Positions 13,597 through 46,670 of a stretch of DNA of 64,000 nt are shown here, piece after piece. Source of the stretch: Candidatus Multivorans sp. (lineage in GTDB: Bacteria > Acidobacteriota > Thermoanaerobaculia > Multivoradales > Multivoraceae); the NCBI GenBank assembly GCA_965224025.1, contig OZ245033.1:1440001-1504000 (forward strand), read 5' to 3'. Position 1 is the first letter of the stretch. Each line of letters begins with the position of its first letter. A program made the position numbers and the translations under genes. The notes below the pieces were generated by a model that worked only from the letters and a program-made list of their open reading frames with translations, had not been told where the DNA came from and ran no database searches.

Positions 13597-13705
13597 CGCC
13601 GCCAAGCGCCTCGCAGGCTCGGCCCCTGGCCCCAGCCCCCACCTCCCCAGCACTCCGCGCCTTCAGCCCCGCACTTCGTGCGGCGCCTACGGCGCGGACT
13701 GCTAG
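13597..13705 (+). repeat. ~105-bp structured element, family B copy 1
   Basis: Core TGGCCCCAGCCCCCACCTC shared with 39665-39769 and 43433-43538. Stem AGCACTCCGCGCC/GGCGCGGACTGCT. Confidence 0.85.
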
Positions 13706-13716
13706 GCTGCGCCGCC

Positions 13717-14838
13717 GTGGGCGCCTTGGACGGACTTCGGGTTCTCGATCTATCGCGGCTTGCGCCCGGGCCGTACTGCTCGATGCTGCTCGCCGACATG
13801 GGCGCGGACGTGCTGCGGGTCGACAACGCGGTGGGCGGACCGGTCCGATCCGGCGACATGCTGTCGCGGAACAAGCGCAGCATCGCGCTCAACCTGAAAA
13901 CGGCGGGCGGCGAGCGCATCCTCCACGAACTGGCCGCGGAGGCGGATGTCTTCCTGGAGGGTAACCGGCCGGGTGTTTGCGCCCGGCTGGGCTGCGACTA
14001 TGCGAGTCTCTCGGCGATCAATCCCGGTCTCGTCTACTGCTCGCTCACCGGCTATGGCCAGACCGGGCCGATGGCGCAGGCCGCCGGGCACGACGTGAAC
14101 TACATCGCGCTCGCCGGCGTTCTGTCGCAGATCGGCAACGGCCAGGACCCGCCCCTGCCGCCCCTCAATCTGGTCGCCGACTTTGGCGGCGGCGGCCTGA
14201 TGGCGGCCTTCGGCATCCTCTGCGCCCTGTTCGAGCGGGAACGGTCCGGCCGCGGCCAGTACATCGACGCCGCAATGATCGACGGAGCGGCCTCCCTGAT
14301 GGCCGTGCACTTCGCCCAGAAGGGCGCCCGCTCGACGCCCGGCGTCGGACTGCTCGGGGGCGGGGCCGCCTTCTACCGCTGCTACGAGTGCGAGTGCGGC
14401 GGCTACGTGTCGGTCGGCGCGATCGAACCGCAGTTCTTCGCGGCGCTGTGCGAGGGAACGGGCGTCGATGTCGCGGATGAGCAGATGGACACCGACTGCT
14501 GGCCGGCACACATCGATGCGTTCCAGCGGGCCTTCCTGACCCGGACCCGCGACGAGTGGGCCGAGGTGTTCAGCGAGCTCGACGCCTGTGTGTCGCCGGT
14601 GCTCGACCTCGACGAGGCGCCACGCCATGAGCACAACATGCAGCGGGGGACCTTCCCGATCGGCCCGGACGGAGAGATTCACATTGCACCCGCGCCGCGG
14701 CTGGAGCGGACGCCCGGCGACCTCCGCCGGCGCGAACCGCGCATGGGAGAACACACCGTAGATGTCCTCCAGGGTCTCGGCTACAGCGCCGGGGACATCG
14801 ACGGACTCGAACAGAACGGAGCGATCCTGAGAGCATGA
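13717..14838 (+). CDS. CaiB/BaiF family III CoA-transferase (alpha-methylacyl-CoA racemase-like)
   Basis: LDGLRVLDLSRLAPGP, RNKRSIALNLK, AGHDVNYIAL, NLVADFGGGG. Confidence 0.92.
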   Translation: MGALDGLRVLDLSRLAPGPYCSMLLADMGADVLRVDNAVGGPVRSGDMLSRNKRSIALNLKTAGGERILHELAAEADVFLEGNRPGVCARLGCDYASLSAINPGLVYCSLTGYGQTGPMAQAAGHDVNYIALAGVLSQIGNGQDPPLPPLNLVADFGGGGLMAAFGILCALFERERSGRGQYIDAAMIDGAASLMAVHFAQKGARSTPGVGLLGGGAAFYRCYECECGGYVSVGAIEPQFFAALCEGTGVDVADEQMDTDCWPAHIDAFQRAFLTRTRDEWAEVFSELDACVSPVLDLDEAPRHEHNMQRGTFPIGPDGEIHIAPAPRLERTPGDLRRREPRMGEHTVDVLQGLGYSAGDIDGLEQNGAILRA

Positions 14839-38183: not shown

Positions 38184-39593
38184 TCAAGCAAACGACCGGC
38201 CCCCGATCACGGCCCAGATGATCCACAGGATCGCGATCGGGCAGACGAACCGGAGCAGCACACCGCGCCAGATCGGGTACCACCGGCTGACCTCGCCGTG
38301 GCCCCGGGCGAGTTCCTCGCGCGACTCGCGGCTGCTCAGGAACCAGCCGATGAAGAGCGCCATCATCAGGCCGCCCAGTGGCAGGATCCAGTTCGACACG
38401 GTGTAGTCCATCGTGCCGAAGAAGCCCTCCGTGCGTTCGCCGAACGGGGCGAAGGAGGAGAGGGCGCCGCTGGCGCCGAGCGAGAGGGCGGAGGGGATGC
38501 CGAAGGCGAAGATGGCGCCGCCGGTGACGAGGCAGGCCTTGCGGCGGCTGAAACCGCGACGGTCGATCAGGTAGGAGGCGACCGTCTCGAGCAGGGAGAT
38601 GGTCGAGGTCAGGGCGGCAAAGGCGACGAGCAGGTAGAACATCGGCGCCAGGACCACGCCCAGGGGCATCTCGTAGAACATGCGCGGCAGGGTGGTGAAC
38701 AGGATAGTGGCGCTCTTGCCGAAGGTGGTCGCCCGCTCGGCTGCGCCGACGCTGAAGATGATCGAAAACATGACGATGCACGCCATGATCGCGATCAGGG
38801 TGTCGAGCAGGCTGATCGCGGCGGCGCTCTTGGGGATCGACTGCTTCGATGTCATGTAGGAGCCGTAGGTGAGCATCGCGCCCATGCCGACCGAGAGGGT
38901 GAAGAACGCGTGCCCCACCGCTTCGAGCAGCCCGTCGGCGGTGATCGGGCCGACGTGGAAGAGGAAGCTGATCGCCTCGCCGAAGCCGGGGCTCCAGAAC
39001 GAGTTGGCGACCAGCAGGATCAGGATGGCGCCGAGCACCGGCATCAGGAGCTTGGTGACGCGCTCGATGCCCTCGCGAACGCCCAGGGTCACGACGCCGA
39101 CGGTGACCGCCATGAACAGGGCGTGGAAGCCGATCTGGAGCGGCCCGTTGGCCAGGAAGCCGCCGAAAGCCTCTCCCAGCGCCTGCCCCTCCATGTCGAA
39201 GCCGCGAACCGACCAGCTCAGGCACTGGCCGAAGTAGTAGACGGTCCAGCCGGCGATCAGGGCGTAGTAGGAGAGCAGGATGAAGCTGCCGGTGACGCCG
39301 AGGGCCCCGACCGCGCCCCAGGCTCGGCCGCCCAACGTGTTCTTCGCGGCCTTGATGAAGGCGCCGACCGGACTCTGACGCGTACGGCGGCCAATCACGA
39401 GCTCGGCCATCATGATCGGCAGGCCGATCAGGGCGATCGCGACCAGGTAGACGAGGACGAAGGAACCGCCGCCGTTCTCGTAGGTGATGTACGGGAACTT
39501 CCAGATGTTGCCGAGCCCGATCGCGGAGCCGACGGCGGCGAAGATGAAACCGAGTTGACCGAACCTGCCGCGTCCGCTGGAGCCGTTTGCCAC
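38184..39593 (-). CDS. Sodium-dependent transporter, NSS/SNF family
   Basis: GSAIGLGNIWKFPY, NGGGSF, GIERVTK, AFFTLSVGMG, AALTSTISLLE. GGGGAGGG RBS before GTG 39593. Confidence 0.93.
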   Translation of the reverse strand: MANGSSGRGRFGQLGFIFAAVGSAIGLGNIWKFPYITYENGGGSFVLVYLVAIALIGLPIMMAELVIGRRTRQSPVGAFIKAAKNTLGGRAWGAVGALGVTGSFILLSYYALIAGWTVYYFGQCLSWSVRGFDMEGQALGEAFGGFLANGPLQIGFHALFMAVTVGVVTLGVREGIERVTKLLMPVLGAILILLVANSFWSPGFGEAISFLFHVGPITADGLLEAVGHAFFTLSVGMGAMLTYGSYMTSKQSIPKSAAAISLLDTLIAIMACIVMFSIIFSVGAAERATTFGKSATILFTTLPRMFYEMPLGVVLAPMFYLLVAFAALTSTISLLETVASYLIDRRGFSRRKACLVTGGAIFAFGIPSALSLGASGALSSFAPFGERTEGFFGTMDYTVSNWILPLGGLMMALFIGWFLSSRESREELARGHGEVSRWYPIWRGVLLRFVCPIAILWIIWAVIGGRSFA

Positions 39594-39664
39594 GCTAGTC
39601 CCCTCCCCTTCGCGCTGTCGCCTGGTGGCGGCGGTCACCATGAGCGCTCCGCCTGCCGCCGAGG

Positions 39665-39769
39665 CTATGAGCCTGCGCCGAAGAACGTAGCGGAGCGAGG
39701 GCTGAGGCGCAAGCTCATAGGGAGGTGGGGGCTGGGGCCAAACACGGAGCTGCGACGGGTTTGGCGGCG
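39665..39769 (-). repeat. Family B structured element copy 2
   Basis: On the minus strand: GCCAAAC/GTTTGGC stem, core GGCCCCAGCCCCCACCTC, stem CTATGAGCTTGCGCC/GGCGCAGGCTCATAG. Confidence 0.9.
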
Positions 39770-39786
39770 GCGTAGCGGAGTCGGCG

Positions 39787-42700
39787 CTACGGCCGGGCCG
39801 AAACGGCAAGACCGGAAGCCGTCGCCCCTCGGAAGGGTGACTCCGGCCCCACGACCCGCGTCAGCCACTGCTCGCGGTAGGCGTCGATTTCGGACGTCCG
39901 GGGATAGCTCTCGCCGGGCGCGAATGGGTAGCCGGACATCGCCTGGAAGGGCAGGGGCAGGTTGCTGTCCGCCTTCCAGGTGTTGCGGTCGGCGTCCTTG
40001 TCCCAGCCGAAGCTCTCAAGGAAGACTGTGCGGGTGTAGCCGGGCTTCGGCGGCTCGAGGCCGCGGGCATCGAAGAGCAGCCGGATTTCGTCGCCCGGAC
40101 CGATCACGACCAGCCGGTCGTCGACGGCGGTCAGGAGTTCGCTTACGTCGCCGAAGCGCGTGTACCGGCCGGGGAAGGGCAGCCACGGGGACTCGGTGCT
40201 CGTGCGCTGGTAGTCGAACAGGTGCGGACCGTTGGGGGCGGGCCTGGTCAGCGTCGAGAACCCGCGGTAGGCCAGATCCGCCGTGGCCGCGTCGAGGCGG
40301 GCCTGTACGACGACGACGGAACCGTTGACCCCGCCGATGTCCGCGCTCCAGGCGACCCGGTCCCAGTGCAGCCAGCGGGTGGTGACGATCCGCAGCCTGG
40401 TGGCGCCCGCGGGCAGCGGCGGCGTGTCCACCACCATCGTCTTCGTCTTGCCGGGAGGGAAGCCCATCGGGTCGAGCAGCGTCCGCCAGCCCTTCGCGGT
40501 TTCGACCTCGAGCCGGGTAATGACCATCTGCAGATCGCCGTACTCCACCGCCTGGGCGATCGCGAGATTCAGGCTGGCGTCGGCGGGAAACACCCAGCCG
40601 TCCAGCCACAGCCGGATGGGCCTCCCTGGTGCTTCACCCAGGTCGAAGGTGAAGGCCCAGGGCTCGGCGGCGTGGCCCTGGTAGCGCGAGCGTTCGTAGC
40701 CGTCCGCGTAGACGTCGTCCCGGGCGCGGACCCGCTCGGTCACGTCGCGGCCGCGGCCGTCCGATGCGTGGACGATCGGACGGATTCCGGTGCTGGCCAC
40801 CACTTCGTCGGGCGGCCGGCCGATGTGCCCCCGGCCGGGCACGATCCTGAGGTTGCTGGCGACCGCCACGTCGTCGCGGTGATCGACCACCCAGAGGCGC
40901 GCGCGGTCGATGTAGGCGGCTTCCCACAGTTCCTCCGTGATCCGCAGGTCGTAGAAGCCGTCGCGTGGGGCGGCGCCGTCGACCCGGACCAGTTCGTCGG
41001 GGTCGTAGCCGTTCCAGACGCGGTCCGCGAGCGGCATACCCAGCGGTGCGCCCCACAGCAGGTCGGTGACGAAGGTGATCTTCTCGCCGTCCCAGGTGTA
41101 GAGGAAGGGGCAACTGCCCTTGAGCACCTGTTCCTCGACGATGGTCATGTTCTGGCTCGGGTCCAAACGGTTCTGCGGTACGCCGTTGGCCCACACGACA
41201 CGGATCAGATCGGCCTGCCGGCGGTTGCCGAGGCCGATGTGGGTGATTGGGCGCTCGACTTCAAAGTACTGGTACGCCCGGCCGGACTTGACCTCGATCG
41301 TCGTGCCGCGGCCGAAGACGTTGTTCTTCTGGTTGGCCACGTCGAGGCCGACCAGGCGAACGCGCAGCCAATTGTTCTCGGAGCCGTCCAGGTTCTCGAT
41401 CCGGTAGAGGCCGGTGGCGCCGGCCGCGACCAGGTCCTGGTCGCCGTCGTCGTCCAGGTCCTCGGCGCGGATAGCCGTGAACTGAGGGTTGCGTGGCAAA
41501 CCCATGACCCGGGCGAGGCGGAAGTCGAGCGCCTCCGGGCCGGAGTCCGAGGTCTGGGTGAGCACCCGCAGTTCGCCCCCCGCGACCAGGGCAAGATCGA
41601 GCCGCCCATCGTTGTCGGCGTCGAGTAGGGCGAGGTCAGTGGCGCCCTCCGGCAGTGCGACCGAACCGGGGGCCAGGGGGAAGGGAGCGACCGCCCCGTC
41701 TTCGTCGCGCTTCAGGATGAGCGTCGAATCGCCGGCGAGCAGGAACTCGGGACCCCCGTCGTGGTCGAGGTCGGCGGTTCGTACGACGCGCACGGGCGCT
41801 TCCGTGGTCAGGGCGCTCGCTGCCGGCTCGTCGGCGCCGACCAGGCTGATCAGCCTCCCGAGCAGACCGCGGCTGGGAGCGGGCGGGGTTCTCTCCGCGA
41901 ACTGGCCCTGGCGGAGATTGGCCAACCACAGGACACCTTCGTCGTGGGCGAGCAGCAGGTCGGTGTCGCCGTCGCGGTCGGCGTCGGTGGCCTGGAGGTG
42001 GTGGTAGGAGCGCGCCTCGACTTCGGGCAGCGCCTGCCGTCCCAGGGCCTCGAGCGGCCCTTCGAAGACCTCTTCGCCCGACACGTTCCGCAGCAGATCG
42101 GGCACGCCGTCGGCCTTGGCCACGGCGAGATCGAGGTCGCCGTCGCTGTCGAAATCGATCAGGTCGGCCGCGGTCACTGCCAGCGAACTCGCCAGGAACC
42201 GGTCGCTTGCGTCCCCGAACTGCGGCGTGTCGTCGACCTGCCAGACGGCCAGGTGATCGCCGATCGAGATCAGGTCGAGTTGCCGGTCGTTGTCGGCGTC
42301 GCCGACCAGGAGGATCTGGGCGTCGGTTTCGGGGGCGGCGCCCGGTGTGGCGTATCCGGTTGCCGCTTGCCGCAGAACCAGCCGGTTGGCTGAACTGTCC
42401 GCGCCGCCGCTTGACGCTGCGCGCGCGATGTCGGGCCGGTCGTCGCCGTCGAAGTCGGCGACTTCGAGTGCTCGGCCCGATGTCGGCGCGTTGTCGATCC
42501 GAGTAGCCCGGAAGCGGGCGGGATTCGCGGGGCCGAAGTCCTCGTTCGGTTCCTCGTCTTCGAAGTGTTCGACGGGAATACCTGGGATGTTCGTGTGGAT
42601 CTCGGCGAGGCTGCTGCGCCAGCCTGGAGTGTCGACCAGCACGTTCTTGACTCGTGGAGCGAGCCGTTGGGCAAGGTCGAGGTCGTTCGCCTCCAGCGCG

Positions 42701-43374
42701 TCGAGGACATCCCCGAGCACCCGTTCGGCGATTGGCCTGGCCTGCCAGATCAGTTCCCGCACACGCAGGTAGTCGTCGCTCGCTCGGCCGCGGTCGGTAT
42801 CCGCGAGCGCCTCCGCGGCGCTCAGGAGCAGGACGACCAGGTTGTCTGGCCGCAGGCGCCTCAACCGGTCCATCGCGTTCCGCCGGTCGGCTTCGGCTCC
42901 GCTCGTGATTTCTGCTTGGCGGAAGAGCGCGTACTGCGCCTCCGGGTCGTCGGGCGCGAGCCGCGCGGCGCGGCGGTAATCCGCGAGGGCATCCTCGTTG
43001 CTCCCAGCGGTCCACCACTGCAGGATGTCGGCGCGAATCAGCAGCAGATCAGTCCGGTTGCCGCCCAGGTCGAGGGCGTGATTGATCGCGGCCAGCGCCT
43101 CCTCGTGCTGGTCCTGCCGGAGCAAGGCTACGCTCAGGTTGGCGTGGCCGAGCGGTTCGTCGGGCGCTAGCTCGGTCAGTTCCAGGAAGGTGGCTTCGGC
43201 AGCGGTCGGCCGCTCGTTTTCGAGTTGGGCATAGCCGAGGTTTCGCAGGCGCACCATCTCCTCGGACGGTTGGGGCTCCTCGGACGGTTGGGGCTCCTCG
43301 GACGGTTGGGGGCACGCGGCGCCTGTGGAGGCTAGTGCGGCGAGGACGAGAGGGGCTGGAAGTTTGCGGAGCAT
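39787..43374 (-). CDS. TPR + FG-GAP repeat + ASPIC/UnbV lipoprotein
   Basis: Lipobox GAAC, TPRs, many DxDxDG repeats, NNWLRVRLVG, HIGLG, KGSCPFLYTWDG. Start is 43374 or 43389. Confidence 0.88.
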   Translation of the reverse strand: MLRKLPAPLVLAALASTGAACPQPSEEPQPSEEPQPSEEMVRLRNLGYAQLENERPTAAEATFLELTELAPDEPLGHANLSVALLRQDQHEEALAAINHALDLGGNRTDLLLIRADILQWWTAGSNEDALADYRRAARLAPDDPEAQYALFRQAEITSGAEADRRNAMDRLRRLRPDNLVVLLLSAAEALADTDRGRASDDYLRVRELIWQARPIAERVLGDVLDALEANDLDLAQRLAPRVKNVLVDTPGWRSSLAEIHTNIPGIPVEHFEDEEPNEDFGPANPARFRATRIDNAPTSGRALEVADFDGDDRPDIARAASSGGADSSANRLVLRQAATGYATPGAAPETDAQILLVGDADNDRQLDLISIGDHLAVWQVDDTPQFGDASDRFLASSLAVTAADLIDFDSDGDLDLAVAKADGVPDLLRNVSGEEVFEGPLEALGRQALPEVEARSYHHLQATDADRDGDTDLLLAHDEGVLWLANLRQGQFAERTPPAPSRGLLGRLISLVGADEPAASALTTEAPVRVVRTADLDHDGGPEFLLAGDSTLILKRDEDGAVAPFPLAPGSVALPEGATDLALLDADNDGRLDLALVAGGELRVLTQTSDSGPEALDFRLARVMGLPRNPQFTAIRAEDLDDDGDQDLVAAGATGLYRIENLDGSENNWLRVRLVGLDVANQKNNVFGRGTTIEVKSGRAYQYFEVERPITHIGLGNRRQADLIRVVWANGVPQNRLDPSQNMTIVEEQVLKGSCPFLYTWDGEKITFVTDLLWGAPLGMPLADRVWNGYDPDELVRVDGAAPRDGFYDLRITEELWEAAYIDRARLWVVDHRDDVAVASNLRIVPGRGHIGRPPDEVVASTGIRPIVHASDGRGRDVTERVRARDDVYADGYERSRYQGHAAEPWAFTFDLGEAPGRPIRLWLDGWVFPADASLNLAIAQAVEYGDLQMVITRLEVETAKGWRTLLDPMGFPPGKTKTMVVDTPPLPAGATRLRIVTTRWLHWDRVAWSADIGGVNGSVVVVQARLDAATADLAYRGFSTLTRPAPNGPHLFDYQRTSTESPWLPFPGRYTRFGDVSELLTAVDDRLVVIGPGDEIRLLFDARGLEPPKPGYTRTVFLESFGWDKDADRNTWKADSNLPLPFQAMSGYPFAPGESYPRTSEIDAYREQWLTRVVGPESPFRGATASGLAVSARP
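43258..43311. repeat. 18-bp coding tandem repeat x3 (PQPSEE)
   Basis: CTCCTCGGACGGTTGGGG repeated just after the lipobox. Confidence 0.9.
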
Positions 43375-43432
43375 GGCTCGTAGTGACATGTGCGGCGGGC
43401 GGCGGCCCAATCCTATGTCTCGACAGGACTAG

Positions 43433-43538
43433 CGCCGCCAAACCTGTCGCAGGCTCCATGTTTGGCCCCAGCCCCCACCTCACCAGAAGCTCGCGCCGCG
43501 AGCCTCGCTTTGCTGCGTTCCGCGGCGCGAGCTTCTAG
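43433..43538 (+). repeat. Family B structured element copy 3
   Basis: GCCAAAC/GTTTGGC stem, core motif, perfect 16-bp stem AGAAGCTCGCGCCGCG/CGCGGCGCGAGCTTCT. Confidence 0.9.
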
Positions 43539-43551
43539 AGTAGTCGCCACC

Positions 43552-46233
43552 GTGACCGCCAAGCGTCTCTTCCTGATCGACGGGTACTCCACGATCTTCC
43601 GCGCCTTCTACGCGATCCGGGGATTGTCGACGTCGTCCGGCGAGCCGACCAACGCGATCTACGGCTTCATCAACATGCTGCGCAAGCTGCTGCGGGAGGA
43701 AGAACCGCCGCTCCTCGGCATTGCGCTGGACGTGGGGCGCGCCACGGTGCGCACGGAGGCCTACGCCGAGTACAAGGCGAACCGGGCGCCGATGCCGGAG
43801 GACCTGAAGGCGCAGATGCCGGCGATCCGCCGGGCGATCGAGGCCTTCCGCATCCCGATCCTCGAACTCGAGCGCTACGAGGCGGACGACGTCCTCGGCA
43901 CTCTGGGCAACAGGGCGGAGGAAGCTGGCTACGACGTCACCATCGTCAGCGCCGACAAGGACCTGTTCCAACTCGTCAGCGACAGGGTGTCGCTGTTTCA
44001 CACGGGACGCGAGAAGACCTACGACCCCGCCCTGGTGGAGCAGGACTTCGGGGTGCCGCCCGGGCAGGTGGTCGAGGTCCTGGCGCTGGTCGGCGACAAG
44101 GTGGACAACGTGCCCGGCGTGCCGGGGATCGGCGCCAAGGGCGCGCAGACCCTGGTCAAGGAGTACGGGACGGTCGAGGCCCTGCTCGAAGCCGCGCCCG
44201 AACTCAAGCGCAAGGCGTACCGCGAAGGCTTGGCACGGCACGCGGACAAGGCCCTGTTGTCGAAGGAGCTGGTGACGATCCACACGGATCTCGATGTCCC
44301 CTTCGATCCCGAGGCACTCAAGATGGAGACCCCGGACTACGAGGCGCTGGCGGAACTGTGCCGCGAGTTCGAGTTCTGGAGCCTGCTCAAGGAGCTTGAG
44401 GGCGAGAGCGGCGGACCGGAGATCGAGCCGGCCGTCATCCTGGAGACCGTCGAGGCGTTCGGGGAGGCGGTACAGGGCCTGGGATCGCGGATCGCGGCCG
44501 GCGTCGTCTTCCGGCGCGGCGGCGAACCGGTCGGGTTGTCGTTTGCTCCGGTCGGGGACACGGCTGACGGGGACGGTGAGGGGACCGCGGGGATCGGCAG
44601 GGCCCACTATGCGGACTTCGGGCTCGCGGGGATGCGGGAGGCCGTGGCGGCCAGGCTGCGGGAATGGCTCGCCGACCCGGGCCTCGAGTTGATCGGGCAT
44701 GATCTGAAGGAGGTCGTCCGCCTCTGTCCACATGGGGACGGCCGGCCGGCGGTTGGCGCGCGCCTGGTCGACACGATGCTGATGGCCTACCTGGTCCACT
44801 CCGCCGTGCGCAGCTTCGGACTGGCGACCGTTGCCCTCGACCGCCTGTTCTACAAGGCGACGACGCCGGCGGACGCAGGTTTGGGTGAGGAGACGGCGGC
44901 CCTGGGCGAGGACACCGGGCTCGGTGTCTACGCGGCGGAGCAGGCGGTGCTTCCCGCCCTGATCCTCGAGGCGCTCGCCCCGCAGTGGCAGGAAACGCCG
45001 GGCGCGCGCGACGTCTACGACTCCATCGAGGCGCCCCTGATGCCGGTGCTGGCGGCGATGGAGGAGGAGGGCATCGAACTCGACTCCGGTGTGCTGTCCG
45101 AGATGTCGCGGCGCCTCGAACTGGACGCCGGCGACCTGGCGGAGGAGATCTTCGACATCGCCGGCGAACGGTTCAACATCCAGTCGCCGCCGCAGCTCGG
45201 CGTCGTCCTGTTCGAGAAGCTGGGCTATCCGGTGCTCGGCCGCACGCGCAAGACGAAGAAGTACTCGACCGGCGCCGAGGTCCTGGAGCAGCTCGCGCAG
45301 CGCGGCTTCGACCTGCCGGCCAGGGTGCTGCACTACCGGGAGCTGACCAAGCTCAAATCGACCTACGTCGACGCGCTGCCGCATCTGGTCGCGGCGGACG
45401 GCCGCCTGCACACCCGCTACCACCAGGCGGTGGCGGCGACCGGCCGGCTGTCCTCGCACGACCCGAACCTGCAGAACATCCCGATCCGTACCGAGATCGG
45501 GCGGAAGGTTCGCCGCGCCTTTCGCGCCCGGGACGGCTACCTGCTCCTGGTCGCCGACTACAGCCAGATCGAGCTGCGCGTGCTCGCGCATATCTCGGGC
45601 GACGAGACGCTGGTGGACATCTTCCAGCACGGCGGCGACATTCACCGCTCGACCGCTGCCACGGTGTTCGGCGTGGCGCCGGAACTGGTCACCGACGAGC
45701 AGCGGCGGGCCTCGAAGACGATCAACTTCGGGATCATCTACGGCATGAGCGCCTTCGGACTCGCGCGCGCCCTCGGCATCGCGCGCGGCGAGGCCCAGAA
45801 CTTCATCAACGCCTACTTCGAGCGGTTTCCCGGGGTTCGCACCTACACCGAGGAGACGTTGGCGAAGGCGGAGGAAGAGATGCGCGTCGAGACCCTCTAC
45901 GGCCGCGTGCGCTACCTGCCGGACATCAAGAGCCGCAACCGCGCGGTGCGCGAGAACACCCGCCGGATGGCCGTCAACGCTCGCATCCAGGGCACCGCCG
46001 CGGATCTCCTGAAGCTGGCCATGATCGCCGTCGATCGCCGGCTGCGGGCGGAACTCGAAGCCTCGCGGCTGCTCCTGACCGTCCACGACGAACTCGTGCT
46101 CGAAGCGCCCGCCGGCGCGATCTCCGAACTCACGGCTCTCGTCAGGGAAGGGATGGAAGGCGTCGCCGACCTGGCTGTGCCCCTGGTCGTCGATGTCGGC
46201 ACGGGTCCGGATTGGTACGAAGCGAAGGCCTGA
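43552..46233 (+). CDS. polA: DNA polymerase I
   Basis: LIDG..FRAFYA, YKANR, EADD, GRLSSHDPNLQNIP, DYSQIELR, NFGIIYG, TVHDEL. Confidence 0.97.
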   Translation: MTAKRLFLIDGYSTIFRAFYAIRGLSTSSGEPTNAIYGFINMLRKLLREEEPPLLGIALDVGRATVRTEAYAEYKANRAPMPEDLKAQMPAIRRAIEAFRIPILELERYEADDVLGTLGNRAEEAGYDVTIVSADKDLFQLVSDRVSLFHTGREKTYDPALVEQDFGVPPGQVVEVLALVGDKVDNVPGVPGIGAKGAQTLVKEYGTVEALLEAAPELKRKAYREGLARHADKALLSKELVTIHTDLDVPFDPEALKMETPDYEALAELCREFEFWSLLKELEGESGGPEIEPAVILETVEAFGEAVQGLGSRIAAGVVFRRGGEPVGLSFAPVGDTADGDGEGTAGIGRAHYADFGLAGMREAVAARLREWLADPGLELIGHDLKEVVRLCPHGDGRPAVGARLVDTMLMAYLVHSAVRSFGLATVALDRLFYKATTPADAGLGEETAALGEDTGLGVYAAEQAVLPALILEALAPQWQETPGARDVYDSIEAPLMPVLAAMEEEGIELDSGVLSEMSRRLELDAGDLAEEIFDIAGERFNIQSPPQLGVVLFEKLGYPVLGRTRKTKKYSTGAEVLEQLAQRGFDLPARVLHYRELTKLKSTYVDALPHLVAADGRLHTRYHQAVAATGRLSSHDPNLQNIPIRTEIGRKVRRAFRARDGYLLLVADYSQIELRVLAHISGDETLVDIFQHGGDIHRSTAATVFGVAPELVTDEQRRASKTINFGIIYGMSAFGLARALGIARGEAQNFINAYFERFPGVRTYTEETLAKAEEEMRVETLYGRVRYLPDIKSRNRAVRENTRRMAVNARIQGTAADLLKLAMIAVDRRLRAELEASRLLLTVHDELVLEAPAGAISELTALVREGMEGVADLAVPLVVDVGTGPDWYEAKA

Positions 46234-46258
46234 CCCACTGGGTGCGCCGCGCGGGTCC

Positions 46259-46670
46259 TCATTGCGCACAGAGGTCGGGTTGGCGCAGGAGCCACCGCCG
46301 GCACCTGGCGCCCTGGTTCTCCGGGTAGACCTTGCCCCTCGGCGCCCTCAGGAGCCGGGTGTCCTTGAAGTCCTCGCGCAGGTCGTGGTCGCGCGAGTAC
46401 AGCAGTCTTGCTCCGCTGAGCCGCGCCAAGGCCACAACGTGCTCGTCGTTCGAACTGCACGATCCATGGGCCTTCAGCGTCGCCGCCTCCCGATCCACCT
46501 CGTCGTCCGCAACGTTCCGGGCGCGGCCCCGCAACAGGGCTTGCCGCAGCCAGGACTTGAACAGGTCGTTGCTCGACAGTTCCCTGCGCAGCAGGCCGCC
46601 GACAGCCAGGCGACCCCTGCCGGAATCGATCCAGCGCCGGAACTCCCGCGCTCCGGGCGGAGCATCGCCC
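46259..46670 (-). pseudogene. PIN-like domain protein lacking its 5' end
   Basis: SNDEHVVALARLSGARLLYSRDHDL PIN-type motifs. The first acidic strand is missing, and the sequence is fused to an ATPase remnant. Confidence 0.6.

What the first reader, a model, noticed from the sequence alone, without database searches (positions are those of the whole stretch)
43433..43551. ~105-bp covarying structured element that always ends on a -10 box upstream of a gene
Seen: three copies (13597-13705 +, 39665-39769 -, 43433-43538 +) share CGCCGCCAA, an invariant TGGCCCCAGCCCCCACCTC core and a long 3' stem. The stem sequence differs but pairing is kept (ATG/CAT vs AGA/TCT, T-A vs C-G; copy 1 AGCACTCCGCGCC/GGCGCGGACTGCT). 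All three point toward a downstream gene (CoA-transferase, NSS transporter, polA). The terminal TAG begins a TAnnnT hexamer (TAGGCT, TAGCCT, TAGAGT), 8 and 10 nt before the GTG in two cases. Inference: either a non-autonomous element that targets or builds promoters, or an undescribed structured RNA motif.
Basis: partly seen in the sequence, partly recalled or inferred. Interest (0 to 1): 0.8.

Follow-up and report, generated by a model that had tools for sequence, protein, structure and literature searches.

The report
Mobile hairpin repeat that targets CTAG
The three look-alike 110-base stretches are copies of a small non-coding mobile repeat that inserts at the rare word CTAG, which is why they end on promoter-like TAG hexamers and stop codons that were there before them.

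Summary
The three copies are real, and so are the shared core and the compensatory stem changes. They belong to a dispersed family of about 68 copies in this 5.1-Mb, 68% G+C genome. Each unit has a 5' hairpin, a C-rich unpaired core and a long 3' palindrome.

At three loci, congeneric genomes show empty sites with a single CTAG where the window's genome has CTAG-element-CTAG. The polA hexamer TAGAGT and the TAGACT at a second locus are present in the empty sites. The element therefore did not build them. It landed in them, and the target duplication restored them.

Orientation relative to genes is not fixed: between co-directional genes, 27 copies are sense and 19 antisense. Copies are rare between convergent genes (3 of 68). 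No Rfam family matches, the element has no terminal inverted repeats, and no cognate transposase was found.

Within its class the family is confined to one genus: 16 of 16 congeners have it, 0 of 104 other genomes. It is nevertheless abundant in three gammaproteobacterial genomes and one distant acidobacterial genome, which points to horizontal spread.

Verdict: a new MITE/REP-like repeat family. A promoter-building role or a function as an RNA is not shown.

The parts
43429..43538 (+). Copy 3, the finding. Left CTAG at 43429-43432, element body at 43433-43534, right CTAG at 43535-43538.
   Evidence: R1 model E = 4.8e-26. The orthologous empty sites in G016, G010 and G017 have one CTAG.
43437..43466 (+). 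5' hairpin of copy 3. GCCAAAC pairs with GTTTGGC and is extended by TG/CA. The loop is about 10 nt.
   Evidence: Fold. Helix 1 is 95% paired, and 7 of its 9 pairs carry a change on both sides.
43463..43481 (+). C-rich core TGGCCCCAGCCCCCACCTC. It is mostly unpaired; its first four bases close the 5' hairpin.
   Evidence: for the exact match. One search shows it unpaired in the fold. One search shows it conserved in the 103 loci that were selected by this same 19-mer, so that conservation follows from the selection. Subfamilies B and C in the same genome have a different core (CCCATCCCGTCCTC-like).
43485..43536 (+). 3' palindrome (module 2) of copy 3, with a 16-bp stem.
   Evidence: Fold. In helix 2, 21 of 22 pairs carry a change on both sides.
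43536..43541 (+). TAGAGT hexamer, half target duplication and half flank, 10 nt before GTG 43552 of polA. It pre-exists the insertion.
   Evidence: CTAGAGTAGTCGCC is present in the empty sites of G016, G010 and G017 and in G003.
13597..13705 (+). Copy 1, a divergent copy without a 5' TAG. Core at 13627-13645, right CTAG at 13702-13705, TAGGCT at 13703-13708, GTG at 13717.
   Evidence: 42 bits. TAGGCT is present in G031, G008, G002, G012 and G010. In the first four the upstream sequence does not align to the whole element, though G031 and G008 keep 7-9 nt like its last nine bases. G010 carries a canonical 3' arm at the same CTAG.
39665..39769 (-). Copy 2. Core at 39722-39740. The 3' end is ATAG at 39668-39665, with TAGCCT at 39667-39662. 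The 5' junction lacks TAG.
   Evidence: The site is filled in G004 and G014 and empty in G016, G012, G008 and G002.

Best explanation
The stretch is one copy of a short, non-coding, non-autonomous mobile DNA repeat (MITE/REP-like), built of modules.

- Module 1 is a 9-bp hairpin followed by a C-rich single-stranded core.
- Module 2 is a palindrome of about 55 nt.

The unit integrates at the tetranucleotide CTAG and leaves CTAG on both sides. This could be a 2-bp TA, 3-bp TAG or 4-bp CTAG duplication; the data do not separate these.

In a 68% G+C genome, CTAG sits largely in C-TAG stop codons and in TAGnnT hexamers close to start codons. The duplication restores the TAG on each side, so such insertions leave the stop codon or hexamer intact and survive. 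That is why copies 'end on a -10 box' or begin on a stop codon.

Shown:
- insertion polymorphism between congeners;
- the CTAG flanks;
- pre-existence of the hexamers in empty sites;
- conservation of the hairpins through compensatory change;
- the patchy taxonomic spread.

Inferred:
- the hairpins are kept because the mobilising machinery, or DNA/RNA stability, needs the structure;
- mobilisation is in trans by a CTAG/TA-targeting transposase of the IS630 type. About 0.3 to 0.4 for this last step, because no matching ends were found.
For: Family size.
- Iterated nhmmer gave 71 hits, 68 after removing 3 re-hits of palindrome arms; 35 lie on + and 33 on -.

Empty versus filled sites.
- polA locus: G016, G010 and G017 read ...GGA-CTAG-AGTAGT. 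G000 and G002 read CTAG-element-CTAG. G012 holds module 1 only, between two CTAGs.
- Locus 3723160: G017, G002, G007 and G009 have a single CTAG whose TAG is the stop codon of the upstream gene. G000 has CTAG-element-CTAG.
- Locus 346539: G016 is empty and reads CTC-CTAG-ACTATG.

Mobility.
- Copy number ranges from 2 (G010) to at least 31 in 16 of 16 congeners.
- Tandem arrays share one CTAG (L095; own 1332998-1333314).
- Other elements are nested at the internal CTAG or in the 3' loop.
- Contigs of one metagenome sample diverge upstream at 43428-43429, which is the CTAG boundary. This is possibly the source sample, so it is not independent.

Terminal TAGs and stop codons, using my own crude gene calls.
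- The 5' TAG is the stop codon of the upstream same-strand gene in 11 of 30 cases. The 3' CTA is the stop of a converging gene in 5 of 22.

Candidate mobilisers.
- The genome carries CTAG-flanked IS copies. Two types are IS630-family (DDE_3) and one is a DDE_Tnp_1 type.
- IS630 is tabulated with a 2-bp duplication in CTAG (PMC2577343, Table 1, passage seen).
Against: - There are no terminal inverted repeats. The outermost 12 nt match in 2.3 of 12 positions on average, and the local score is 5.6 against 4.8 for shuffles.
- No end of 11 resident IS types resembles the element ends; none reached z > 3.
- The two candidate transposases tested were not found in G140 and G142, which hold 39 and 40 copies.
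- The copy-2 locus has no TAG at its 5' junction. Only 55 of 136 copies have xTAG at the 5' end, so either the ends decay or the 5' boundary is not fixed.
- Strong compensatory change together with a core conserved across phyla is more than a classical MITE needs.
- Copies are depleted between convergent genes: 3 of 68 against 11-14 expected.
- In this genome TAGnnT is enriched at the 3' end: 11 of 19 against 23% of 2014 background CTAG flanks, binomial p = 0.0012. This leaves room for selection on gene-proximal function.
Confidence: 0.8

Rival explanations
1. A structured RNA motif, cis-regulatory or a small RNA. The two hairpins would present the C-rich, anti-Shine-Dalgarno-like core (CACCUC) to pair with G-rich ribosome-binding sites. 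Mobility would be secondary.
For: - 28 of 31 pairs carry compensatory change.
- The core stays unpaired in the folds.
- Copies from hosts whose PolA is 42-47% identical are about as alike as copies within one lineage: median 67-76% between lineages against 73% within.
- 65 of 68 copies lie in intergenic regions that contain a gene start.
- Between co-directional genes, 27 copies are sense and 19 antisense.
Against: - The orientation bias is not significant (p = 0.30).
- On the element strand, G-U cells (84) are fewer than A-C cells (160), so wobble pairs do not mark that strand as the RNA.
- Both strands fold equally well.
- No Rfam match was found at the gathering threshold or at E up to 1.
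- No terminator-like site was found.
- Insertion polymorphism, tandem arrays and collapsed palindromes are DNA-level behaviour.
Confidence: 0.15
2. A promoter-building mobile element. The 3' arm would carry an outward -35-like TTGCGT 17 bp before the terminal TAG, which together with two flank bases and a T makes a -10. This would drive nearly leaderless downstream genes.
For: - In the consensus, TTGCGT lies 17 nt before the terminal TAG (my reading).
- In this genome 11 of 19 TAG-ended copies give TAGnnT and 6 of 19 give TAGAnT. The background is 23% and 5.8%.
- 13 of 33 same-strand downstream genes start within 30 nt of the element's end, by my crude start calls.
- Of the 7 solo module-2 hits that end on TAG, 4 are followed by TAGACT or TAGAAT.
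- Correia elements are reported to carry promoters (PMC10969869, passages seen).
Against: - The hexamers pre-exist in empty sites. At the CoA-transferase locus the hexamer also stands in congeners that lack a whole element.
- In other genomes only 11 of 61 TAG-ended copies give TAGnnT.
- The promoter scan gives 0 sites at all three copies.
- Copy 3 itself has CTGCGT, not TTGCGT.
- By my count from the listing, 5' ends abut divergent gene starts within 30 nt about as often as 3' ends do (9 against 13).
- Three of the 11 positive copies are the discovery copies. Without them the count is 8 of 16.
Confidence: 0.15
3. A REP/REPIN-type or IS200/IS605-type element, moved as single-stranded DNA by an HUH tyrosine transposase (RAYT or TnpA) that recognises the hairpins and a CTAG cleavage word.
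For: - The element has hairpins rather than inverted ends, with a conserved tetranucleotide next to the 5' hairpin.
- Compensatory stem changes are present.
- An IS110-family IS sits in the 3' arm of three copies. From recall, IS110 members are known to target REPs.
Against: - No Y1_Tnp match was found in G000 (100% complete) or in G143, which holds at least 143 copies.
- The Y1-like genes found in G016, G140, G141 and G142 have no element copy within 1.5 kb.
- No TnpB was found.
- CTAG stands on both sides of the insert, which looks like a duplication.
- Copies avoid convergent gene ends, where REPs usually sit (REP placement from recall).
Confidence: 0.05

Closest known systems
Correia elements (CREE/NEMIS) of Neisseria
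   Same: - Size is about 100-200 bp, non-coding, with many copies.
- They often lie just upstream of genes.
- They form hairpins in transcripts.
- Promoter activity is discussed (PMC10969869, passages seen).
- From recall: TA target duplication, and the mobilising enzyme is unknown.
   Different: Correia elements have long terminal inverted repeats that pair end to end. This element has none and instead has two separate internal hairpins and a conserved C-rich core. No sequence comparison with Correia elements was run.
IS630-family MITEs, for example RUP of pneumococcus (RUP from recall)
   Same: - Insertion at CTAG/TA with CTAG on both sides. IS630 is listed with a 2-bp duplication in CTAG (PMC2577343 Table 1).
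- IS630-family IS copies with CTAG-flanked ends are resident in the genome.
   Different: The ends do not resemble the resident IS630-type inverted repeats. The one IS630-type transposase tested (the 1.15-kb IS; the second resident type was not searched) was not found in two genomes that are rich in copies.
REP/BIME and REPIN-RAYT systems; RIME mosaic elements of rhizobia (recall)
   Same: - Mosaic, modular, hairpin-forming intergenic repeats.
- Stems are kept by compensatory change.
- Used as landing sites by an IS110-family IS.
   Different: - No RAYT in G000 or G143.
- A target duplication is present.
- Copies lie mostly in regions with gene starts, not between convergent genes.
- The unit is about three times longer than a REP.
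ERIC/IRU elements of enterobacteria
   Same: An imperfect palindromic intergenic repeat of about 127 bp. Copy number varies widely between related hosts, and no mobilising enzyme is known (PMC10969869 passages; the rest from recall).
   Different: The sequence and host range are unrelated. ERIC is a single long palindrome, whereas this element has two hairpins plus a core. The cross-phylum spread was shown here.

Membership tests
MITE (classical, derived from a DDE-transposase IS) | Short, non-coding, many dispersed copies | tested here: met
   68 copies of about 110 nt on both strands.
MITE (classical, derived from a DDE-transposase IS) | Target-site duplication and insertion polymorphism | tested here: met
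   One CTAG in empty sites against CTAG-element-CTAG at three loci. The copy-2 locus is atypical at its 5' side.
MITE (classical, derived from a DDE-transposase IS) | Terminal inverted repeats like those of a parent IS | tested here: not met
   The outermost 12 nt match in 2.3 of 12 positions. None of 11 resident IS types has ends scoring z > 3.
IS630-family-derived MITE | TA duplication inside CTAG | tested here: inconclusive
   The CTAG target is shown. 5' xTAG with x not C occurs in 21 of 55 copies, which argues for a TA or TAG duplication rather than CTAG. The exact length is not resolved.
IS630-family-derived MITE | A cognate IS630-type transposase co-occurs with the copies | tested here: not met
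   Present in G000, G141 and G143. Not found with the one IS630-type query used (the 1.15-kb IS; the second type was not searched) in G140 and G142.
REP/REPIN with RAYT | A Y1 (RAYT) gene in the genome, flanked by the repeats | tested here: not met
   No PF01797 match in G000 or G143. The Y1 loci of G016 and G140-G142 have no copy within 1.5 kb.
IS200/IS605-derived PATE | TnpA (Y1) and/or TnpB present; no duplication | tested here: not met
   Searches found none. CTAG stands on both sides of the insert.
IS91/ISCR rolling-circle derivatives | A Y2 transposase in the genome | tested here: inconclusive
   No PF04986 match, but the control genomes were silent too.
Any Rfam RNA family | Covariance-model match | tested here: not met
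   0 matches at the gathering score over the window. At E up to 1 on 9 loci holding copies, nothing fell on the element.
Sigma-70 promoter or intrinsic terminator | Consensus -35/-10 pair, or a G+C-rich stem followed by a T run | tested here: not met
   0 promoter-like and 0 terminator-like sites at all three copies. The scan uses the E. coli consensus.

The most novel reading that the evidence does not exclude
The element may be a structure-defined mobile unit without inverted ends. Its two covarying hairpins and conserved C-rich core would be the substrate of a mobilisation route not yet identified, shared horizontally between Acidobacteriota and Gammaproteobacteria. Once inserted next to a start codon, the core might also act on expression, either as an anti-Shine-Dalgarno-like core or through an outward -35.
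Probability: 0.15. Interest if true: 0.7.

Novelty: new variant of a known kind. Interest (0 to 1): 0.4.

Why it matters
It explains a striking pattern, a structured element that 'always' abuts a -10 box, by target choice plus target duplication. This is a useful caution for scans that read position as function.

It also defines an undescribed repeat family in uncultured Acidobacteriota with four unusual traits:
- no inverted ends;
- strong compensatory change in the stems;
- a core conserved across phyla;
- genus-restricted yet cross-phylum occurrence.

These traits make it a marker of horizontal exchange and a test case for how end-less small repeats move. For annotation, the copies should be masked as repeats, and gene starts next to them should be checked.

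Tried and rejected
- **RNA evidence.** No RNA holder was listed for window 38500-46500. Laying the two DNA contig runs, which are one sample, showed no contig that skips an element.
- **Carriers.** The 19-mer has 0 matches in viral contigs. The element has no match in plasmids.
- **Papers.** No paper was found with 'Candidatus Multivorans' plus sponge. None was found with the core written out. The MITE + CTAG + bacteria search listed nothing relevant. The sponge symbiont / REP / Acidobacteria search listed nothing relevant.
- **Chance matches.** Five of the 108 loci carrying the 19-mer are chance matches without the element: L004, L013, L047, L052 and L077, titled Cyanobium, Cyanobacteriota, Anaerolineae, Alphaproteobacteria and Methanocrinis. 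My first impression of 'many phyla' was therefore cut to two phyla.
- **Record titles.** Titles such as 'Vicinamibacteraceae' do not mark separate lineages. G144 has a PolA 89% identical to the window's.
- **HUH routes.** The Y1, TnpB and Y2 routes are covered.
- **IS ends.** The ends of the IS630-like and DDE_Tnp_1 IS copies of G143 and G141 were inspected and are unlike the element.
- **Habitat.** Several MAG isolate labels recall marine-sponge microbiome studies. This comes from recall only and was not tested.

Full report
**1. Observation**

The three stretches are as described. The 19-mer core occurs exactly three times in the window, where 0.05 matches are expected. Each copy folds into a 5' hairpin, an unpaired C-rich core and a long 3' hairpin. 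Fold energies are 3.5 to 5 standard deviations below shuffles on both strands. The hexamers TAGAGT, TAGGCT and TAGCCT start on the terminal TAG. The first two lie 10 and 8 nt before a GTG. Rfam has no match in the window. It also has no match at E up to 1 on nine loci that hold copies.

**2. A dispersed family**

The window is C1:1440001-1504000 of a 5.14-Mb genome with 3 contigs and 67.6% G+C. Three rounds of nhmmer gave 71 hits. Removing 3 re-hits of palindrome arms leaves 68, with 35 on + and 33 on -. 53 span the model almost end to end.

At least three subfamilies differ by paired changes in the 5' stem:
- CCAAAC/GTTTGG
- CGAAAC/GTTTCG
- CAGAAT/ATTCTG

Other features of the family:
- Five copies carry an extra insert in the 3' loop and span 166-181 nt in all (an insert of roughly 55-70 nt).
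- One site holds three tandem units.
- Partial copies are either module 1 (hairpin plus core) or module 2 (palindrome). Separate module profiles added 2 and 10 further loci.
- Some palindromes are collapsed.

**3. Structure**

I aligned 102 distinct copies: 3 from the window, 79 from other genomes and 20 from this genome chosen to include subfamilies B and C (A2). RNAalifold found 16 pairs, 15 with compensatory change.

For the full two-helix structure:
- 85.8% of cells pair, against 75.0% when shuffled.
- 28 of 31 pairs carry a change on both sides.
- This involves 337 cells, against 115 +/- 7 shuffled; 0 of 500 shuffles reached the observed value.
- Slid controls gave 53-73 cells.

The copies are related and 79 of them were picked by the exact core, so these numbers overstate independence. 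The sign of the result is still clear.

On the element strand there are 84 G-U cells and 160 A-C cells. Wobble pairs therefore do not mark that strand as an RNA.

**4. It is an insertion**

At the polA locus:
- G016, G010 and G017 read ...CTAG-AGTAGTCGCC... with a single CTAG.
- G000 and G002 have CTAG-element-CTAG.
- G012 has module 1 alone between two CTAGs.

At locus 3723160:
- Four congeners have one CTAG, whose TAG ends the upstream gene.
- G000 has the element between two CTAGs.
- G010 and G005 have a different insert of about 100 nt there.

At locus 346539, G016 is empty and already reads CTAGACT.

At the copy-2 locus, four congeners are empty. The filled alleles lack a 5' TAG, so that junction is atypical.

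At the copy-1 locus, TAGGCT stands in five congeners whose upstream sequence does not align to the whole element, although G031 and G008 keep 7-9 nt like its last nine bases, so these are not clean empty sites. G010 carries a canonical 3' arm at the same CTAG, a second hit on one site.

Across 136 copies, the 5' junction is xTAG in 55 (CTAG 34, GTAG 14). The 3' end is CTAG in 53 and CTGG in 23. The ends decay toward G+C. The first base is not duplicated, which favours a TA or TAG duplication.

**5. Why copies abut genes**

Gene calls are from my own codon-usage ORF finder (4019 genes, 86.5% coding) and starts are approximate. The 68 copies divide as follows.

| Intergenic context | Copies | Note |
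|---|---|---|
| Co-directional genes, sense | 27 | sense against antisense, p = 0.30 |
| Co-directional genes, antisense | 19 | |
| Divergent genes | 19 | |
| Convergent genes | 3 | 11-14 expected by number of regions, length or CTAG count |

Further points:
- The 5' TAG is the stop codon of the upstream gene in 11 of 30 cases. The 3' CTA is the stop of a converging gene in 5 of 22.
- Of the 63 copies that keep the 3' part, 19 end on xTAG. Of those, 11 give TAGnnT, against 23% of 2014 background flanks of intergenic CTAGs. The binomial p is 0.0012.
- Three of those 11 are the discovery copies.
- In other genomes the figure is 11 of 61. A stricter pattern gave 5 of 38.

The simplest reading is this. 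CTAG is rare here (2311 in the genome). It lies largely in stop codons and TAGnnT hexamers, and the duplication keeps both intact.

**6. Who moves it**

The genome is rich in IS copies:
- IS110 (1.76 kb, about 16 copies) and ISL3;
- two IS630-family types and one DDE_Tnp_1 type, all with CTAG-flanked ends;
- rve types;
- IS1595 elements with a DNA methylase passenger.

The search for a mobiliser gave these results:
- None of 11 IS ends resembles the element ends, and the element has no inverted ends.
- No Y1 or TnpB gene is present. The Y2 search was uninformative.
- Y1-like genes in G016 and G140-G142 are not flanked by copies.
- The DDE_Tnp_1 and one IS630-type transposase are absent from G140 and G142 with these queries.

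The mobiliser is therefore unknown. An IS630-type enzyme is the best guess, from the target alone (PMC2577343 Table 1, passage seen).

**7. Distribution**

A scan of one genome per species for the 19-mer stopped at 108 loci.
- 103 hold the element, and 81 of them hold it at full length.
- The 5 others are chance matches.

With the covariance model R1, the element is in 16 of 16 congeners. It is in 0 of 104 genomes from 59 other genera of the same class.

| Genome | Reached through record titled | Copies | PolA identity to the window's |
|---|---|---|---|
| G140 | Pseudomonadales | 39 | 43% |
| G141 | Pseudomonadales | 69 | 43% |
| G142 | Gammaproteobacteria | 40 | 42% |
| G143 | Vicinamibacterales | at least 143 | 47% |
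| G144 | Vicinamibacteraceae | 57 | 89% |

G144 is thus a congener despite its title. Named near relatives are titled Candidatus Multivorans or Thermoanaerobaculia, in Acidobacteriota.

Copies from different lineages are about as alike as copies within the window's lineage. Between lineages the median is 67-76% and the maximum 82-88%. Within the lineage the median is 73%. This patchiness fits horizontal spread. No viral or plasmid carrier was found.

**8. Verdict**

This is a new family of small mobile repeats. It is MITE-like in behaviour and REP-like in anatomy. The promoter link is mostly target choice. An added role at RNA or promoter level is open but unsupported.

Noticed in passing
G000 C1, e.g. 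111494-113271, 2108618-2110394, 1178621-1180349 (outside the window): A 1.76-kb IS110-family IS (DEDD_Tnp_IS110 plus Transposase_20; 16 intervals of 1.68-1.79 kb in the self-comparison, two longer intervals may hold more) sits at junctions of the form ...GCGCAnnCTTG|CATGGAACAAAC. About 10 of the 14 junctions listed have that GCGCA-type flank. Three lie in the 3' arm of this element, so the palindrome is a landing site for the IS.
   Followed up: partly
G000 C1, e.g. 690785, 1070841, 1611406, 4541742, 4862592: A further repeat of about 60 nt, CATGGAACAA(A/G)CCCTGTTTCC...GACTCGACTCCTAG, also ends on CTAG. It is sometimes joined to the 3' end of the element as a third module of the mosaic.
   Followed up: no
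G000 C1 265600-268458 and 909273-911986 (4 copies each by self-comparison): IS1595-family elements that carry an N6/N4 DNA methyltransferase gene (PF01555) as a passenger next to the transposase.
   Followed up: no
window 43255-43312: An 18-nt unit (CTCCTCGGACGGTTGGGG) stands three times in tandem at the 5' end of the 1207-codon ORF on the minus strand. The congeners aligned have it once.
   Followed up: no
G000 C1 4776486-4776666, 747923-748097, 4541690-4541856, 3989659-3989839, 2767504-2767669; L100: Five copies carry an extra insert in the 3' loop and span 166-181 nt in all (an insert of roughly 55-70 nt). In 4776486, 747923 and L100, whose sequence was printed, it is a G+C-rich palindromic insert (CCGGGTGGCGCG...CGCGCCACCCG...), apparently yet another small nested repeat. 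The inserts of the other three were not read.
   Followed up: no
G000 contigs C2 (76.7 kb) and C3 (18.2 kb): Most of C2 and C3 matches stretches of C1 around 2.33-2.41 Mb at 85% identity or more. They may be strain variants or a duplicated island. The genome's contamination figure is 5.66%.
   Followed up: no
orthologues of G000 C1 3723160 in G010 and G005 (L203, L204): At the same stop-codon CTAG where G000 holds the element, G010 and G005 hold an unrelated insert of about 100 nt. The site is hit repeatedly by different repeats.
   Followed up: no
L010, L028, L035, L046, L060, L070, L071 (records titled Gammaproteobacteria or Pseudomonadales): One gammaproteobacterial subfamily is bracketed by an extra 8-bp inverted pair, GGAGGGCG...CGCCCTCC, instead of CTAG. 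This would close the two hairpins into a three-way junction.
   Followed up: no
G000 C1 2805533-2805639, 3735351-3735462, 4386312-4386371: Some copies overlap ORFs that my crude gene finder calls coding. Whether these are intragenic insertions or false ORF calls was not checked.
   Followed up: no
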